A stretch of 64,000 bases of DNA from positions 64,001 through 128,000 of the forward strand of contig CAZESS010000002.1 of the NCBI GenBank assembly GCA_964514975.1, read 5' to 3'. The notes under the pieces were generated by a model, which saw nothing but the letters and a program-made list of their open reading frames with translations, did no database searches and was not told where the DNA came from. This DNA is from an uncultured Thermoplasmatales archaeon (lineage in GTDB: Archaea; Thermoplasmatota; E2; UBA202; DSCA01). The position numbers were made by a program, and so were the translations under genes. Shown one piece after another: positions 475-17,185 of the stretch; within the stretch, counting starts at the first letter, position 1, and each line of letters opens with the position of its first letter.

Positions 475-3400
475 ATGGCAGACTCGAAGCAGAGAACAGC
501 AGTGCTTATGACGTTCACGGTTGCCTTTCTTTTACTGGCCCATCTGCTGCCCGTGACACCGGCATCGGCCGAGCCGGCCGGAACCGGGTTTGACAAGGGC
601 ATCTCATGGGCGTCGACCACCTTTACCAAAAAAGCCACGTTCGTCGGGTTCGACGAGCAAAGCACCCTTGACGACTATGCATATCTCTCGGCGGTGCCAT
701 CCTCCGTGTTTTACAGCAGCGGCGCCGACCGGATGTACACGCATCCATTGCTTTTCCACCAGGCAGATACGTCGGTGGGCGGCGAAACCGACCGGGCGCT
801 CAACGGCAAGCAGGGCGTCGACTATTTCATGGACGACTGGATGAGCGCCTGCAACGGCCGGCTGGACGACCTGATGCTCATCAACGTCGGCGAGGGCGAG
901 ATAGACCTGGCAGCCCGGAACGTCACCACCATCAACGGTGACACGCCGGCGGACATCGCCGGGCGGCTGGCCGAGCGCGACTGGATGTACGCCGACGAGG
1001 CGGTCCTGGCCGTCATCAACGACGACACCATATCGGAGGGCAACATGACGTCGGGGAGCCTTACCGGGAGCTTCGCCGCCGGCGCCGAGGTGAAAACAAC
1101 GAGCTTCCAGGTGCCGCAGAGCAACTCGCTGAACCCCGTGTACCATGAGTTCACGGTGCCGGAGCAATACAAGTATCTGAAGGCCGACCTGTGGTGGAAC
1201 TGTTTCATCCTGGGTGGCTTCATCGCCATCCCTCCGGGTGACCCCGACCTGCAATTGTTCTGCCAGCACGGCAGCGACTGGATGCAGACCGCCGCCGTTG
1301 CGACCTGGAACATCCTGACCGGGCCGGCCGAGCAGGCTGCCTCCTACGTCTACAATCCCGGCTCATGGCGGGTGGGCGTCACCGACATCCCCACAGAGCG
1401 GGACAAAGAAATACCACGCATAGACCTCTTCGGCGGCCTGCTGTCCCTGCAGGGCTCCGCCTTCCAGGCGCTCCGCAGCATCCGCCGGGGTGTCACATAC
1501 AACATCGACGTCGAGATGTACCCGGGCACCGAGGTGGACGTGCCCGACGTGCCCGAGACGGGTGTCGACAACGCCTCGTTCACCCTGGAATGGAACGGTG
1601 AAGCCCAGCTCGGAATGTCGCTCATCGGACCGGCGGGCGAGGAAATCGTGGCTGCGCGCAACATGACCAGCTCCACGCAGCACATCGAGGTCGACAAGCT
1701 GGGCGGCTGCCGCCCCGGCGAGCACTACCGGCTCTGCGTGTTCAGCATGGAAAAAGACGCACAGGGCACGGTCGACTTCACCGTCTCCTATACCTGGCGC
1801 AATAAAACATCCATGCAGCAGGATATGTCCCTCGCATCGGCAGCCCAGGGCGCCGTCCTGGCATCGGCGCTCAATGCGCCATTGCTCTACACCTCATCCG
1901 ACGATTTGCCGTCAGCGACCAAGTCCGCGCTCCGCACCCTGGGCGTCGACAGGGTGCACGTCATGGACCTCGGGGAGCGCCTGACAGATAAGGCACGTAC
2001 CGACATCCGCAACGCTGCCGACATCAAGGCATGGCACACCGCGGCCAGGGATGCCTATGACACCATCCGCGATATCACGGGGCAGAACGACGTCATTTTT
2101 TCGACGACCGACCCGTGGACGTTCTGGCGAAGCGGTGAGCTGCAACCCGGCGGCGAGTTCCCGGGCGCATTGTTCGTCGGCCCCGCCGCCTTCCATGCAG
2201 CACAGCACGGCAGCCCGCTGCTGCTGCTGGAGATGCATCCACGGCTCTCCTCGGCGGTGGTATGGCACAACGAGTTCTGGCGTCGCCATGTCAGCGAGCG
2301 CTTCCTGTTCACGCCGACGGTGGCAGAGATGTATCTGACGGGCAAACGTGTCTATGATTTCCTGCATGACTATGGCTTCGACGGCGACGGCATGGAGTCC
2401 ATGGTGACCATCGCCGGGCAATATGACATCGGCACCCCATGGGACCGTGTCTTTGTGGGCAAGGCCAAGCCCGGCCGTATCTTCGGCTCGCCGGTCGACG
2501 CTGCCTCATGGTCGGCCCGCAACGTGTTTTATCCCCGTCTCATCTTCGAAAACCCGGGGCTCAACCCCGGCGGCGTTGAAATGATAAACGGCAGCACGAG
2601 CACCCGCCGCTTCACCGGGCTCGCCAGGCGGCCGCTGGCCAACACGCTGGTGGTAGAGAAGCCGTCCGAGATGGAGCAGATGACCTATCCCGTGGTGTGC
2701 TCCTTTGTTACCCATAAATATCGGTTCAACGAGCGCGCCGGGGAATACTATGGCTCCACCTATCAGTGTGCTGACGGGCTGACACCGGGCCAGGATTTCA
2801 CGTTCAACCCCATCGATCAGGGGCTGGGTGAAAAATATCTGGGTATCGAGGGCGCCATCTTTCCGGATATGACTGAGACGGAGGTCGTGCCCACCTATCT
2901 GCGGCGGGGCGGCTACGACGTCGCGTTTTCTACCTCGCTGGAGGCGGTCGGCGCCGATCTCAACACGGGCGCTATCATGTGGGTCCATGGCTCCCATGGA
3001 CTGGAGACGGAGTGTGGCTCCACCCTGTTCTGGGATCCGGACGAGGGGTTCAGCAGCCATGATCCCATCTCGCAGCTGGTGAAACCCTTTGCTGGTGCGA
3101 CGCGGGAGGAAAACCCCTGGCGCGGCTATGAATGGTATCTGGGCTCGACGGCGCAGCCCGACACGATGACCATGGACGTGCAGGGCACCATTCCGTTCAC
3201 CAACATCCCGTTTCCCATCGCCACGGGCATGGACTGGGCGCTGGCCAGGGAGCCGGTCAGGGAGACCCTCAACAAGATTATCCCGTTTTTCGCTCCCTTC
3301 AACGTCGATGACAGCTATGACGGCGTCATCGGCACCATCCAGTTTTCCCGGTATCCCTACGCGGAGAAAAACGCCACCCAGATCGAGGCGGTGCTTGACA

Positions 3401-3921
3401 ACCTGCATTCCATGGGCTTTATCACGAGCATCTGCCAGACCGCCAACACCTATTTCCATCTGTCGCTCGTCCGGCATGGCAGCGTGTTCCAGGTGCAGGA
3501 CCCCTGGCCGACCTCCTGGTATGGCACTATCTGGCGGCAGAGCATCCCGCGCGACCTGGTGCTCGGTGACACCGTCGGCGAGGCCTACGTCAAGGGGATG
3601 AGCCATGTCGGCATCCTGTACATCACGGAGCCACCCCAGTGGTGGTGGGACATCATGGAAAACGTGGTCCTGTTCGGCGACCCCGACCTCCGCGTCTGGG
3701 TGCCCGGTCAGCAGTACAGCAGCAAAAATCACTGGGAGCAGACCGACGTCGAGCCCCTTGAATACCGGCAGCAGATGGCAGTTGACGGCCATGCGCTCTA
3801 CGGCGCCACGGAACATCCCCACAGGGTGGAGGGGTTCAACTGGATGCCCATTCTGCTCGGCCTTGCCATCGTTGCGCTCATCGGCGCCGCCGGCTATCTC
3901 TACTGGCGCCGGAACCAGTGA
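475..3921 (+). CDS. Large secreted, C-terminally membrane-anchored protein with a C25/gingipain-like C-terminal region
   Basis: Signal peptide; C-terminal TM helix followed by WRR; HGSHG, TSICQT, VGEAY and NVVLFGDPDL motifs; TTTATAG box about 25 nt upstream of the ATG. Confidence 0.75.
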   Translation: MADSKQRTAVLMTFTVAFLLLAHLLPVTPASAEPAGTGFDKGISWASTTFTKKATFVGFDEQSTLDDYAYLSAVPSSVFYSSGADRMYTHPLLFHQADTSVGGETDRALNGKQGVDYFMDDWMSACNGRLDDLMLINVGEGEIDLAARNVTTINGDTPADIAGRLAERDWMYADEAVLAVINDDTISEGNMTSGSLTGSFAAGAEVKTTSFQVPQSNSLNPVYHEFTVPEQYKYLKADLWWNCFILGGFIAIPPGDPDLQLFCQHGSDWMQTAAVATWNILTGPAEQAASYVYNPGSWRVGVTDIPTERDKEIPRIDLFGGLLSLQGSAFQALRSIRRGVTYNIDVEMYPGTEVDVPDVPETGVDNASFTLEWNGEAQLGMSLIGPAGEEIVAARNMTSSTQHIEVDKLGGCRPGEHYRLCVFSMEKDAQGTVDFTVSYTWRNKTSMQQDMSLASAAQGAVLASALNAPLLYTSSDDLPSATKSALRTLGVDRVHVMDLGERLTDKARTDIRNAADIKAWHTAARDAYDTIRDITGQNDVIFSTTDPWTFWRSGELQPGGEFPGALFVGPAAFHAAQHGSPLLLLEMHPRLSSAVVWHNEFWRRHVSERFLFTPTVAEMYLTGKRVYDFLHDYGFDGDGMESMVTIAGQYDIGTPWDRVFVGKAKPGRIFGSPVDAASWSARNVFYPRLIFENPGLNPGGVEMINGSTSTRRFTGLARRPLANTLVVEKPSEMEQMTYPVVCSFVTHKYRFNERAGEYYGSTYQCADGLTPGQDFTFNPIDQGLGEKYLGIEGAIFPDMTETEVVPTYLRRGGYDVAFSTSLEAVGADLNTGAIMWVHGSHGLETECGSTLFWDPDEGFSSHDPISQLVKPFAGATREENPWRGYEWYLGSTAQPDTMTMDVQGTIPFTNIPFPIATGMDWALAREPVRETLNKIIPFFAPFNVDDSYDGVIGTIQFSRYPYAEKNATQIEAVLDNLHSMGFITSICQTANTYFHLSLVRHGSVFQVQDPWPTSWYGTIWRQSIPRDLVLGDTVGEAYVKGMSHVGILYITEPPQWWWDIMENVVLFGDPDLRVWVPGQQYSSKNHWEQTDVEPLEYRQQMAVDGHALYGATEHPHRVEGFNWMPILLGLAIVALIGAAGYLYWRRNQ

Positions 3922-10427: not shown

Positions 10428-10486
10428 TGGTAGGGTATGAAAGCGAGCTACTTAAATCTTTGCCGCCCTGTCAGGGGTTGGGGGGC

Positions 10487-10512
10487 AAAAAAACCGGGCG
10501 GCTCTCCCGGGT
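10487..10512 (-). terminator. Hairpin plus oligo-T tract, terminator-like
   Basis: Minus strand CCGGG-agagccg-CCCGG followed by T7. Confidence 0.35.
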
Positions 10513-10738
10513 GTACTGTGGGGACAATGCCGGGGCCAGCGGCGCCATGTAAACGTTTGCTCCATAGATGCTATAGCCTCTATAGCCGTATGCCGGAAAA
10601 CGTTAATATCCAGCGATGCACGGCGAGAGAGAAGGGCAGGGCGGGTGGACAAGAAGAGGTATCCCAGTATGCGCTGTGGCATATATCCCTGCCCCGGGTG
10701 TATATGCGGCGGGGATTCATTAATATTGCGCCATCCGA

Positions 10739-10806
10739 TGCTGGAGGTGGGAATCGAACCCACCTGTGCCATCGGGCAGACGACGGGGATTGCTGCCCGC
10801 TCCAGC
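10739..10806 (-). ncRNA. tRNA-like element (acceptor stem + T-arm, no canonical D/anticodon arms)
   Basis: GCTGGAG/CTCCAGC acceptor stem plus discriminator A; GTGGG-TTCGATT-CCCAC T-arm; internal CGGGCAG/CTGCCCG hairpin; TTTTAAC box about 20-27 nt upstream. Confidence 0.6.
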
Positions 10807-10884
10807 AGCAATACCATGCCCGGATGTTAAAAAATGTTGCGATGGGCACGTATTTTTATAAACCACCTGGTGTTATATGCAGGT

Positions 10885-11016
10885 ATGACAACCTGTCCAG
10901 GCTGCAACACGGACAATCCCGCCGGGGCGAAGTTCTGCATGGAATGCGGGACGCCGTTACCGCAGAAAAAGACGTGCGGTGATGAATCATGGGATGAAAG
11001 CGCGGGTGGCCCGTAG
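10885..11016 (+). CDS. Small zinc-ribbon protein, or 5' remnant of a double-zinc-ribbon protein
   Basis: CPGC..NPAGAKFCMECG; TTTATAAA about 25 nt upstream. Confidence 0.55.
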   Translation: MTTCPGCNTDNPAGAKFCMECGTPLPQKKTCGDESWDESAGGP

Positions 11017-11152
11017 CGCCCCTGCTTTCGGGATGTGCTGATGATTCATTGTATGACGGCGCATGCTAGATGACGGAGGTCGTGTAGTTGCTGTATGCAC
11101 TTTGTAGGGATGGCCGGAATATTTATATATTAAATTAACAATTGTTTATTAA

Positions 11153-11556
11153 ATGAGTAATGGCACGCAGCGTATCATCCTCCTCATCGAAGACGACCCG
11201 GCCATCCAGGAACTCCTCGACATGCAATTCACATCGCTCAACGTCAAACTATACCGGGCACAGGGCGGCCTCGAAGGAGTACAGCGCTACCGGGAGCTGC
11301 ACGCCGCGCTGGCAAACGACCCGACCTGGTCATCATGGACATCAAACTGCCGGCCATGAACGGCATCGAAGCAACCAAAAAAATAAAAGAAATAGACGAC
11401 AGCGCCGTCATCTACGGGTTCACCGCCTTCGCCTCCGTCAAAGGCAAAGAACTCCGGCAGGCGGGCGCCCAAAAAGTCATCCCCCGCACCCATGGGTTCA
11501 AGGCGCTCCGGGACATCGTCATCTCCTCTATCCACGCCCGACCACCGTCAACATGA
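11153..11556 (+). pseudogene. Stand-alone response regulator receiver domain, frameshifted near 11305
   Basis: ILLIEDD in one frame; KRPDLVIMDIKLPAMNGIEAT..FTAFA in another; removing one GC repeat unit joins them. Confidence 0.85.
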
Positions 11557-11839
11557 TGTCGCGGCGCTATTGCTGCATACCTATTTCGCTTTTTCCCGGT
11601 TCTCCATTCCGAGCATGTAGCCGCCCAGACCCCTCAGCCAAAAAAGAATCGAATACGCCACCCACCGCTCGGTTCCCCCGCCACCTCTATATGTTTCTGC
11701 ATAAACGAGCGGAGCTTTTCATGCATGGTGCCGGCCCTCTTCTTATGTTATAGCCATATTATCTGCAAACCTTATGTCCTCGGGACAAAAATACAACATA
11801 CCGGCCCTTGGATACAGCGGCATGGGAAGCAAAAAATAG

Positions 11840-11970
11840 TGCTCCCGTCGGGATTCGAACCCGAGTCCTCGGCTCGCTCCGAACCTTTTTTGGATGTGAA
11901 GCACCTTTTCTAAAGGGGCGCAAGGGTTCTCGAGAGGCCGAGATGATTAACCGGACTACACTACGGGAGC
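11840..11970 (-). tRNA. tRNA-Glu(CTC) with 56-nt intron at 37/38 (intron 11875-11930)
   Basis: Acceptor GCTCCCG/CGGGAGC, T-loop TTCGAAT, anticodon loop CT-CTC-GA; BHB motif with CTCT/GGAG helix and two CGA bulges. Confidence 0.95.
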
Positions 11971-12253: not shown

Positions 12254-12340
12254 GCTGAGGTGGCCGAGTCCGGACCAAGGCGGTAGCCTCGAGAGCTACT
12301 GGGCCATTGGCCCTCGCAGGTTCAAATCCTGCCCTCAGCG
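12254..12340 (+). tRNA. tRNA-Ser(CGA)
   Basis: GCTGAGG/CCTCAGC acceptor, GTAGC-CTCGAGA-GCTAC anticodon arm, long variable arm, GTTCAAATC T-loop, followed by a T-tract. Confidence 0.96.
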
Positions 12341-12433
12341 CTTTTTTTCTCTGTTGCTGGGAGAAAACACAAAAATTGTTGCACGAGCACAAAATTGCTT
12401 GCAAAAAACAAACTTTTATATATATTCTCTTGA

Positions 12434-15165: not shown

Positions 15166-17185
<2,020 letters not shown>

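What the first reader, a model, noticed from the sequence alone, without database searches (positions are those of the whole stretch)
10739..10806. tRNA mimic: intact acceptor stem and T-arm, anticodon/D region replaced
The minus strand reads GCTGGAG CGGGCAG CAATCCCCGTCGT CTGCCCG ATGGCACAG GTGGG TTCGATT CCCAC CTCCAGC A (68 nt). The 7-bp acceptor stem, discriminator A and 5-bp T-stem with TTCGA loop are perfect. The 36-nt middle lacks U8, the D-loop GG and a 7-nt anticodon loop, and instead forms one 7-bp hairpin (alternative fold: CGGG/CCCG plus TGCC/GGCA). A TTTTAAC box lies about 20-27 nt upstream, and the flanks CATCCG/CGGATG can pair. A simple att-site duplication would copy only the 3' part, so keeping both acceptor strands suggests selection on the minihelix recognised by RNase P, tRNase Z and the CCA-adding enzyme. 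Inference: an undescribed non-decoding tRNA-like ncRNA (decoy, aminoacyl donor or processing signal) upstream of the Lsm-rpl37e operon.
Basis: partly seen in the sequence, partly recalled or inferred. Interest (0 to 1): 0.75.

Follow-up and report, generated by a model that had tools for sequence, protein, structure and literature searches.

The report
Conserved tRNA-like RNA beside lsm
An uncultured Thermoplasmata-type archaeon carries a 68-base RNA gene that keeps the top half of a tRNA but replaces the decoding half with one hairpin; a related genome keeps it too, and it most likely acts as a cutting signal at the head of a longer non-coding RNA.

Summary
Window 10806..10739 (-) has a perfect 7-bp acceptor stem, a 5-bp T stem with a canonical T loop and discriminator A. 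A strict scan finds this pattern twice in the window (this element and tRNA-Ser) against 1 hit in 300 shuffles. ARAGORN calls it tRNA-Gly(gcc), but only with a 2-bp D stem. Rfam gives nothing at gathering score. The hairpin fold is 6 kcal/mol better than the cloverleaf.

A spurious antisense ORF across the locus has a metagenomic counterpart. Read as a proxy for DNA, it shows 36 of 36 determinable bases of the helices and loops unchanged. The 9-nt linker changed at 3 of 6 determinable bases and the flanks at 13 of 20. The change in the linker breaks ARAGORN's anticodon stem.

The nearest genome with DNA on hand (L001) lacks the element. The element has a T-rich box upstream and no terminator, unlike both true tRNA genes nearby. 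A conserved structured RNA block starts 5 nt downstream.

Best reading: a tRNA-derived, non-decoding "t-element"-like module. No expression or cleavage data exist.

The parts
10827..10834 (-). T-rich TATA-like box (six T then AA). It begins 28 nt upstream of base 1 of the element.
   Evidence: Sequence read. The second lineage has a T-rich box compatible with YUUYUCRAA at the same distance, back-translated from P0003. That it acts as an archaeal promoter is inferred from position only.
10739..10806 (-). tRNA-like element, 68 nt: acceptor stem (10806-10800 / 10746-10740), T arm (10763-10747), discriminator A (10739), 7-bp hairpin with 13-nt loop (10799-10773), 9-nt linker (10772-10764).
   Evidence: Conservation in the P0003/P0004 lineage.
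10773..10799 (-). Hairpin that replaces the D and anticodon arms. The stem is CGGGCAG/CUGCCCG and the loop has 13 nt.
   Evidence: Pair probabilities are 0.67-0.70 for the hairpin against 0.007 for the D stem and 0.04-0.05 for the anticodon stem. All 17 determinable bases are the same in the second lineage: 8 in the stem and 9 in the loop.
10764..10772 (-). Variable 9-nt linker between the hairpin and the T stem.
   Evidence: In the second lineage it has the same length, with 3 bases changed, 3 the same and 3 undetermined.
10632..10733 (-). Conserved structured RNA block that starts 5 nt after the discriminator. It has a 9-bp outer stem GGGGCAGGG/CCCUGCCCU around two inner hairpins.
   Evidence: 85% identical to L001 3078-3178. 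It folds the same way in both genomes. Its translation is also kept in P0003. No Rfam match.
10487..10631 (-). Extension absent from L001. Part of it (about 10550-10595) is shared with the P0003 lineage. It ends in a hairpin (10510-10494) followed by T7 (10493-10487).
   Evidence: This is the first oligo-T of 5 or more downstream of the element; a T4 lies at 10600-10597.

Best explanation
This is a selected, non-decoding, tRNA-derived element. It keeps the acceptor/T-arm minihelix and carries one conserved hairpin in place of the D and anticodon arms.

It is transcribed from its own T-rich box as the first part of a transcript of about 320 nt (10806 to about 10487). That transcript continues, with no terminator in between, into a conserved structured RNA block.

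RNase P would cut at base 1. tRNase Z would cut after the discriminator, which releases the 68-nt tRNA-like RNA and creates the 5' end of the downstream RNA. This is how the t-element upstream of Haloferax 5S rRNA and plant mitochondrial t-elements work.

Shown: the shape, the conservation pattern, the lack of a terminator and the adjacency to the block. Inferred: transcription, both cleavages, and any fate of the released 68-mer.
For: 1. tRNA top half far beyond chance: 2 strict hits in the window against 1 in 300 shuffles.
2. Not a standard tRNA. Rfam gives no hit at gathering score; the best in the tRNA clan is 21.3 bits against 47 needed. The cloverleaf is -24.3 against -30.3 kcal/mol for the hairpin form. 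ARAGORN's D stem has 2 pairs.
3. A second lineage (P0003/P0004, a spurious antisense ORF used as a proxy for DNA) gives identical residues for 19 of 19 codons over the helices and loops. That is 36 bases the same, 0 changed and 22 undetermined. The linker is 3 changed, 3 the same, 3 undetermined. The flanks are 13 changed, 7 the same, 5 undetermined. Fisher p = 0.0017 and 4e-8.
4. The linker change puts A opposite G/A at ARAGORN's pair 26-36, so the anticodon stem is not kept.
5. A T-rich box sits at the same distance in both lineages.
6. Both true tRNA genes in the window end in T7 or T6 within 5 nt. The element has no run of 4 T for 139 nt, and the first strong terminator-like site is at 10510-10487.
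7. The conserved block starts 5 nt after the discriminator in the window and about 9 nt after it in the P0003 lineage. In L001, which lacks the element, the same block is preceded by an AT-rich stretch (3040-3064) that could place a transcription start within a few nt of the same point (inference).
8. Precedent: t-elements are cut by RNase P and tRNase Z and define ends of neighbouring RNAs (PMC4326828 and PMC4946936, passages; PMC1920247, abstract and passages).
Against: - L001 keeps the block without the element, so the block does not need it.
- Conservation rests on one further lineage, seen only through amino acids: 22 of 58 bases are undetermined and no compensatory change in a stem can be counted.
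- The leader comparison assumes no indel.
- A pure cutting signal does not explain why the 13-nt hairpin loop is unchanged at 9 of 9 determinable bases.
- The block's folds are not better than shuffles (z = -0.1 and -1.9).
- No transcript data of any kind.
Confidence: 0.45

Rival explanations
1. It is a stand-alone regulatory tRNA-like small RNA. The released, CCA-tagged 68-mer is the functional product. It would act through its conserved hairpin loop, as a binding partner or decoy for a tRNA-binding protein, or as a minihelix substrate of an aminoacyl-tRNA synthetase. The downstream RNA would be a passenger.
For: The hairpin loop is unchanged at 9 of 9 determinable bases and the stem at 8 of 8, while the linker beside it changed at 3 of 6. 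The element has its own T-rich box. It has discriminator A and a C2:G pair, which I recall as glycine identity features; no call tested this. A pseudo-tRNA with a regulatory role is known in Bacillus cereus (PMC3399842, abstract seen in the listing).
Against: No target was found. The complement of the loop matches the window only at the element itself, plus one 2-mismatch site where 2.8 are expected by chance. There is no terminator of its own. It is absent from L001. Nothing shows stability or charging.
Confidence: 0.2
2. It is a decaying tRNA gene or a tRNA gene fragment with no present function, for example a relic of a duplicated tRNA-Gly(GCC) or of the neighbouring tRNA-Ser(CGA). ARAGORN over-calls it, as happens with tRNA fragments in archaeal genomes.
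For: The locus is in flux. L001 has a papain-type protease gene where the element sits, and the DUF998 gene of L001 survives in the window only as a 32-residue fragment. The element is absent from L001. A covariance model of the element scores the neighbouring tRNA-Ser at 34.0 bits (32.7 for the L001 copy), against 20.0 or less for the other 17 matches. Miscalled tRNA fragments are common in archaea (PMC9897764, abstract and section 12).
Against: All 12 minihelix pairs and all 7 hairpin pairs are perfect, although the tertiary-core bases are gone. In the second lineage 0 of 36 determinable bases changed in the helices and loops, against 3 of 6 in the linker and 13 of 20 in the flanks. Both acceptor strands are present. 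There is no second copy of the 3' half in 64 kb (1 match, the element itself, at up to 3 mismatches). No integrase or other mobile-element family turned up among the 35 ORFs scanned between 475 and 30905; 30.9-64 kb was not scanned. Plain global alignment does not single out tRNA-Ser (score 40.5, range 29-46 for 13 tRNAs).
Confidence: 0.2
3. It is a working but atypical tRNA-Gly(GCC) with a compact core, as ARAGORN draws it.
For: ARAGORN's call gives a 7-nt loop with U33 and GCC. Discriminator A and C2:G71 fit glycine identity (recalled, not tested). Compact cores with 5-nt D loops exist in tRNAPyl (recalled).
Against: The best score in the Rfam tRNA clan is 21.3 bits. It has C at position 8, no GG in the D loop, a pyrimidine at 37 and a 2-bp D stem (the conserved-base rules are textbook knowledge). 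The cloverleaf costs 6 kcal/mol relative to the hairpin form. The anticodon-stem pair 26-36 is broken in the second lineage. It has no terminator, unlike the 2 of 2 true tRNA genes nearby.
Confidence: 0.05
4. The real gene is the 181-residue ORF on the + strand (10437-10982), and the tRNA-like shape on the other strand is incidental.
For: The ORF is open and has a 172-residue counterpart at 45% identity.
Against: No Pfam family matches it. Identity comes in three islands that coincide with the lsm promoter, the RNA block and the element, separated by 48 gap positions out of 159. The frame has stops in L001. The ORF overlaps the conserved 43-residue zinc-ribbon gene and its promoter. The tRNA pattern is far beyond chance.
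Confidence: 0.02
5. It is an assembly or sequencing artefact of a normal tRNA gene.
For: The window comes from a metagenome-type contig. Its own protein P0002 is listed on one contig of 160058 bases.
Against: An independent assembly from another lineage (P0003/P0004: 2 member sequences, 2 and 1 contigs) encodes the same length and the same 19 codons across the element.
Confidence: 0.03

Closest known systems
Haloferax volcanii t-elements (the tRNA-like structure upstream of 5S rRNA)
   Same: An archaeal, non-decoding tRNA-like structure placed directly upstream of another stable RNA. tRNase Z cleavage at its 3' side makes the 5' end of the neighbour, and it is also an RNase P substrate (PMC4326828 and PMC4946936, passages).
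   Different: A different phylum and a different neighbour: an unknown structured RNA beside lsm rather than 5S rRNA inside an rRNA operon. Here the element appears to carry its own promoter box. Sequence relatedness could not be tested: Hoelzle 2008 is not held and Hoelzle 2012 was seen only as a citation. Whether the Haloferax element has the same single-hairpin middle is unknown to me.
Plant mitochondrial t-elements
   Same: Non-canonical cloverleaves recognised by the GGTTCRANYCC T-arm motif, whose ends coincide with RNA 5' or 3' ends and which are thought to direct RNase Z and RNase P cuts (PMC1920247, abstract and passages). The element here carries that motif exactly.
   Different: They are organellar, flank mRNAs, and are dispersed in several copies. 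Here a single copy is seen in 64 kb.
mascRNA / MALAT1 and MEN-beta tRNA-like ends (Rfam RF01684)
   Same: A tRNA-like module fused to a longer non-coding RNA and released by RNase P and RNase Z. This is recalled; the Wilusz 2008 paper was seen only in a reference list.
   Different: It is eukaryotic, sits at the 3' end of the long RNA, and is not related in sequence: 16.6 bits against 42.5 needed.
tRNA gene fragments left by integrating elements or CRISPR spacers in archaea
   Same: Gene finders call them tRNAs although they are not canonical (PMC9897764, abstract and section 12).
   Different: [quoted passage not shown] Here both acceptor strands are perfect, the window holds no repeat and the scanned ORFs give no mobile-element family, and a second lineage keeps the element.
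Bacillus cereus tRNA-Other (a pseudo-tRNA with a regulatory role)
   Same: A tRNA-shaped RNA that does not function in translation, yet its deletion has a phenotype (PMC3399842, abstract in the listing).
   Different: It is bacterial and flanks a genomic island. No structural or sequence comparison was made here.

Membership tests
Canonical decoding tRNA (Rfam RF00005 and its clan) | Covariance-model score at or above the gathering score | tested here: not met
   No match at gathering score. In E-value mode the best match in the clan is tRNA-Sec at 21.3 bits (47 needed), so RF00005 scores no higher than that against its 29.
Canonical decoding tRNA (Rfam RF00005 and its clan) | Conserved core: U8, G18-G19 in the D loop, a D stem of 3-4 pairs, a purine at 37 | tested here: not met
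   C at position 8, D loop AGCAA without GG, a 2-pair D stem, C at 37. The list of features is textbook knowledge, not a call.
Canonical decoding tRNA (Rfam RF00005 and its clan) | Anticodon stem kept in relatives | tested here: not met
   In the P0003 lineage position 36 is A opposite G or A at position 26. Other pairs are undetermined or kept.
Canonical decoding tRNA (Rfam RF00005 and its clan) | Gene ends in an oligo-T terminator, as local tRNA genes do | tested here: not met
   tRNA-Ser is followed by T7 and tRNA-Glu by T6, within 5 nt. The element has no T4 for 139 nt.
t-element (tRNA-like processing signal) | Acceptor stem plus T arm with the GGTTCRANYCC motif, and a non-canonical remainder | tested here: met
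   7 + 5 perfect pairs and the exact motif. The middle is one hairpin.
t-element (tRNA-like processing signal) | Its end coincides with the end of a neighbouring functional RNA | tested here: inconclusive
   A conserved structured block begins 5 nt after the discriminator with no terminator between them. No transcript ends are known.
t-element (tRNA-like processing signal) | Cleaved by RNase P and tRNase Z | not testable with these tools
   Needs an enzyme assay or end mapping.
t-element (tRNA-like processing signal) | Sequence relatedness to the Haloferax t-elements | not tested
   No Haloferax t-element sequence was on hand: the paper is not held and Rfam returned no such family.
tRNA fragment from an integration event (att scar) | Only the 3' part of a tRNA, repeated in a full copy at the other end of a mobile element | tested here: not met
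   Both acceptor strands are present. The 26-nt 3' part matches only itself in 64 kb at up to 3 mismatches. The rest of the genome could not be searched.
tRNA fragment from an integration event (att scar) | Integrase or other mobile-element genes next to it | tested here: not met
   No such Pfam family in the 16 ORFs or the 19 ORFs (475-30905). ORFs under 90 residues and the region 30.9-64 kb were not scanned.
mascRNA-menRNA (RF01684) | Score at or above the gathering score | tested here: not met
   16.6 bits against 42.5, E = 1.5.
tRNAPyl-type compact-core tRNA | CUA anticodon (together with one base between acceptor and D stems and a 5-nt D loop without GG) | tested here: not met
   The one-base spacer and the 5-nt D loop can be drawn, but the 68-mer holds no CTA. 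The feature list is recalled, not taken from a call.

The most novel reading that the evidence does not exclude
A small clade of uncultured Thermoplasmata has evolved a dedicated, stable, CCA-tagged tRNA mimic. It keeps the minihelix that tRNA-end enzymes and perhaps a synthetase read. It swaps the decoding half for a sequence-constrained hairpin loop, and so works as a regulator or aminoacyl carrier outside translation, co-expressed with a second unknown structured RNA next to the gene for the RNA chaperone Lsm.
Probability: 0.12. Interest if true: 0.8.

Novelty: new variant of a known kind. Interest (0 to 1): 0.5.

Why it matters
From the papers I saw, tRNA-like processing signals in archaea are described for Haloferax.

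A second, structurally different case in another phylum would matter for two reasons. It would suggest that borrowing RNase P and tRNase Z to shape non-tRNA transcripts is a wider archaeal habit. It would also point to a new structured RNA next to lsm.

The element is a warning for annotation as well. ARAGORN reports it as tRNA-Gly(gcc), which would inflate the tRNA set of this genome. ARAGORN also misses the real intron-bearing tRNA-Glu 1 kb away.

If the conserved hairpin loop has its own function, this would be a natural tRNA mimic outside translation in archaea.

Tried and rejected
1. Synteny search.
   - ARAGORN on all 80 loci finds no tRNA-like call directly upstream of lsm in the near relatives.
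   - blastn with the element gives only chance matches of 10-14 nt.
   - My relaxed minihelix scan (55 hits in 81 sources) finds only normal tRNAs, intron-bearing tRNA-Met genes and poor chance hits.
   - A covariance model of the element finds no second copy (20 matches at E up to 10, all tRNAs or weak).
2. Plasmid and phage collections: 18 and 106 records matched, none over 80% of the query, and only T-arm-sized pieces.
3. The sense-strand spurious ORF (121 residues) as a proxy: no homologue. A search among shorter proteins with residues 62-125 of the antisense ORF: none.
4. The full HMMER scan with the 60-residue stretch gave 7 proteins at E up to 0.001: the window's own, P0003, and 5 long proteins of 809-1805 residues with 2-19 matched stretches. 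I set those 5 aside as repetitive matches without examining them.
5. Origin from the neighbouring tRNA-Ser(CGA): suggested by the covariance-model score (34 bits) but not by plain alignment. Left open.
6. A target for the hairpin loop: nothing above chance in the window.
7. A C/D-box or H/ACA reading of the downstream block: I saw no matching boxes by eye, and Rfam gave no hit.
8. A small ORF in the block: a 1-nt indel between the window and L001 shifts the frame.
9. BHB, split or permuted tRNA readings were rejected. At 68 nt the element is already shorter than a tRNA, and the hairpin has no bulges.
10. Complex prediction and structure tools were not used. No protein partner is proposed.

Full report
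WHAT IS THERE. It has a 7-bp acceptor stem and a 5-bp T stem around UUCGAUU, all Watson-Crick, and discriminator A. The 36-nt middle can form a perfect 7-bp hairpin (CGGGCAG/CUGCCCG) with a 13-nt loop, followed by a 9-nt linker.

A strict scan asked for 5 Watson-Crick T-stem pairs, loop TTCRANY and 7 of 7 acceptor pairs. It hits the window twice, at this element and at tRNA-Ser, and hits 300 dinucleotide shuffles once in all. So this is a tRNA-derived sequence and not chance. The 68-mer folds at -32.2 kcal/mol (z = -3.0). A perfect stem of 7 bp or more arises in 2.3% of shuffles of the middle (468 of 20000).

IS IT A tRNA? ARAGORN says tRNA-Gly(gcc) at 10737-10807. Its drawing needs an 8-bp acceptor, a 2-bp D stem, a 5-nt D loop without GG, and an anticodon stem with two G.U pairs.

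Rfam finds only tRNA-Ser in the window at gathering score. In E-value mode the element's best match in the tRNA clan is tRNA-Sec at 21.3 bits (47 needed). mascRNA scores 16.6 bits (42.5 needed).

Pair probabilities are about 0.7 for the hairpin and 0.05 or less for the cloverleaf stems. C at position 8, no G18-G19 and C at position 37 go against the textbook tRNA core.

SURROUNDINGS. On the same strand downstream lie lsm (10427-10212), rpl37e (about 10210-10052) and purF (10055-8658). A 43-residue zinc-ribbon gene (10885-11016) runs the other way upstream.

lsm has its own TATA-like box (10458-10451), and a hairpin plus T7 (10510-10487) precedes it. The element is therefore not part of the lsm operon.

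Two true tRNA genes lie within 1.5 kb:
- tRNA-Ser(CGA) at 12254-12341 (+).
- An intron-bearing tRNA-Glu(CUC) at 11970-11836 (-), which both ARAGORN and Rfam miss.

Both end in T7 or T6 within 5 nt. The element has no T4 for 139 nt. Six T plus AA lie 28-21 nt upstream of its first base.

RELATIVES. Lsm retrieves 80 loci, all uncultured Thermoplasmata or Thermoplasmatota and Methanomassiliicoccales-like archaea. The best is L001, with 93% Lsm identity.

None of the 80 loci holds a second copy of the element, by four methods: ARAGORN, blastn, my relaxed scan and a covariance model.

L001 is collinear with the window over tRNA-Ser, tRNA-Glu, the zinc-ribbon gene, lsm and purF. The difference lies between the zinc-ribbon promoter and lsm. 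The window has 123 nt there, including the element. L001 has 1.64 kb with a secreted papain-family protease gene carrying PKD domains.

Homology resumes 5 nt after the element's discriminator in a 102-nt block that is 85% identical (window 10733-10632, L001 3078-3178). The block folds the same way in both genomes: a 9-bp outer stem and two inner hairpins, one with a different sequence but kept pairing. It has no Rfam match. Among the 80 loci it occurs only in L001.

The locus is in flux. The DUF998 gene of L001 survives in the window only as a 32-residue fragment.

A SECOND LINEAGE WITH THE ELEMENT. The antisense ORF 10437-10982 (+) is in the public protein set (P0002). It has a 172-residue counterpart, P0003, with near-identical P0004, from other metagenome contigs. 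The sense-strand ORF and shorter proteins gave nothing. The full HMMER scan added no further true relative.

The alignment has three islands of identity: the lsm promoter, the block and the element. L001 read in the same frame shows the first two and then stops.

Across the element the residues are identical for 8 codons (acceptor 3' strand plus T arm) and for 11 codons (hairpin, loop, acceptor 5' strand). The 3 codons of the linker all differ, with no gap. Converted to bases:
- Helices and loops: 36 the same, 0 changed, 22 undetermined (third codon positions).
- Linker: 3 the same, 3 changed, 3 undetermined.
- Leader and trailer: 7 the same, 13 changed, 5 undetermined.
- Fisher tests: p = 0.0017 (core against linker) and 4e-8 (core against flanks).

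The linker change places A opposite position 26, which breaks ARAGORN's anticodon stem. It also changes G43 to U, which removes the sixth T-stem pair of the minimum-energy fold but leaves the canonical 7 + 5 arrangement.

A T-rich box compatible with YUUYUCRAA sits at the same distance upstream. Part of the extension that L001 lacks (about 10550-10595) is shared with this lineage.

Caveats: this is one lineage, seen only through amino acids, and the leader comparison assumes no indel.

HOW IT MOST LIKELY WORKS. The element has a promoter-like box and no terminator. It abuts a conserved structured RNA at 5 nt in the window and about 9 nt in the second lineage.

In L001 the same RNA lacks the element. 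There it is preceded by an AT-rich stretch (3040-3064) that would place a start within a few nt of the same point, and it is followed by T5 (3188-3192). The start site is my inference from spacing.

I therefore read the element as a t-element-like module. RNase P and tRNase Z release the 68-mer, and tRNase Z thereby makes the 5' end of the downstream RNA. This has been shown for the tRNA-like structure upstream of Haloferax 5S rRNA, which has been reused as a tool (PMC4326828, PMC4946936, PMC7714728; passages). It has been proposed for plant mitochondrial t-elements (PMC1920247; abstract and passages).

The shape, the conservation, the missing terminator and the adjacency are shown. Transcription and both cuts are inferred.

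The unchanged hairpin loop (9 of 9 determinable bases) is not explained by a pure cutting signal. It keeps open a function of the released 68-mer itself.

RIVALS.
- Neutral relic or miscalled fragment. Such miscalls are common in archaea (PMC9897764, section 12). This reading fits the unstable locus and the absence from L001. It does not fit the perfect stems, the 0 of 36 changes, the presence of both acceptor strands, the lack of a repeat in the window, or the lack of integrase-type families among the 35 ORFs scanned between 475 and 30905 (the rest of the window was not scanned).
- Atypical decoding tRNA-Gly. It fails the score, core, stem-conservation and terminator tests above.
- A real antisense protein. 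This is unlikely: no Pfam family, island-like identity with 48 gap positions of 159, stops in L001, and overlap with the zinc-ribbon gene.
- An assembly artefact. This is unlikely, because an independent assembly gives the same length and codons.

ORIGIN. The covariance model of the element scores the neighbouring tRNA-Ser(CGA) at 34.0 bits and its L001 copy at 32.7, against 20.0 or less for all other matches. Five of the seven acceptor pairs are shared. Plain global alignment does not single out tRNA-Ser. A local duplication of tRNA-Ser is a lead, not a result.

NOVELTY. My searches found no description of a tRNA-like element beside lsm or in Thermoplasmata. The terms were 'tRNA-like' with Haloferax and tRNase Z, with archaea and pseudo-tRNA, with 'Thermoplasmat', and with t-elements; and 'tRNase Z' with minihelix and archaeal. 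Of the 4 papers holding 'tRNA-like' and 'Thermoplasmat', 3 were listed and none is about this by title or abstract. Supplements were not consulted.

The kind of thing, a tRNA-like processing module, is known. The architecture (one conserved hairpin in place of two arms, its own promoter box, the head of an unknown RNA) and the lineage are new. I rate it a new variant of a known kind, with interest 0.5.

LEFT OPEN.

Noticed in passing
window 11836-11970 (-): An intron-bearing tRNA-Glu(CUC) with a 56-nt intron at the canonical 37/38 site, followed by T6. ARAGORN and Rfam at gathering score both miss it; only a partial tmRNA-model hit marks its T arm. Its 3' exon is 98% identical to L001 506-560.
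   Followed up: partly
window 10632-10733 (-); L001 3078-3178: A conserved structured RNA block directly upstream of lsm. It has a 9-bp outer stem, two inner hairpins and an invariant pyrimidine stretch CCUCUUCUUGUCC. It has no Rfam match and no conserved ORF. It is seen only in the window, L001 and the P0003 lineage. It is a candidate new small RNA.
   Followed up: partly
L001 1488-3014 (-): A secreted papain-family (Peptidase_C1) protease with PKD and Ig-like domains occupies in L001 the place where the window has the tRNA-like element.
   Followed up: yes
window 11596-11691 (-): A fragment matching residues 173-204 of the L001 DUF998 protein (66% identity, E = 1.8e-9). The rest of the gene is gone, so 11017-11832 looks like decayed DNA. 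The 197-residue ORF 11160-11753 (+) has no Pfam family.
   Followed up: partly
L060 1186-1289, L072 1235-1338, L073 1279-1382, L074 1081-1185, L078 1190-1293, L079 765-868: Intron-containing tRNA genes of about 104 nt with a CAU anticodon (Met type), found by my scan but not called by ARAGORN.
   Followed up: no
L028, L038, L041, L053, L065 (same strand); L020 (opposite strand): A tRNA-Arg(TCG) lies 1.3-2.1 kb upstream of lsm in several more distant Thermoplasmatota. It shows no resemblance to the element.
   Followed up: partly
window 10780-10791 and 10705-10716 (-): The hairpin loop and the start of the downstream block share a 12-nt near-repeat, AAUCCCCG(U/C)CG. The copy in the block is not kept in L001 and appears not to be kept in the P0003 lineage.
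   Followed up: partly
window 10437-10982 (+): Public protein collections hold this spurious antisense ORF (P0002) and its counterpart (P0003/P0004) as proteins. Such ORFs can serve as a proxy for intergenic DNA when contigs cannot be fetched.
   Followed up: yes
window 15732-16754 (-): An ORF that joins an aTrm56 tRNA 2'-O-methyltransferase domain to an HD domain.
   Followed up: no
window 475-3921 (+): A 1148-residue ORF with no Pfam family at E up to 1e-5.
   Followed up: no
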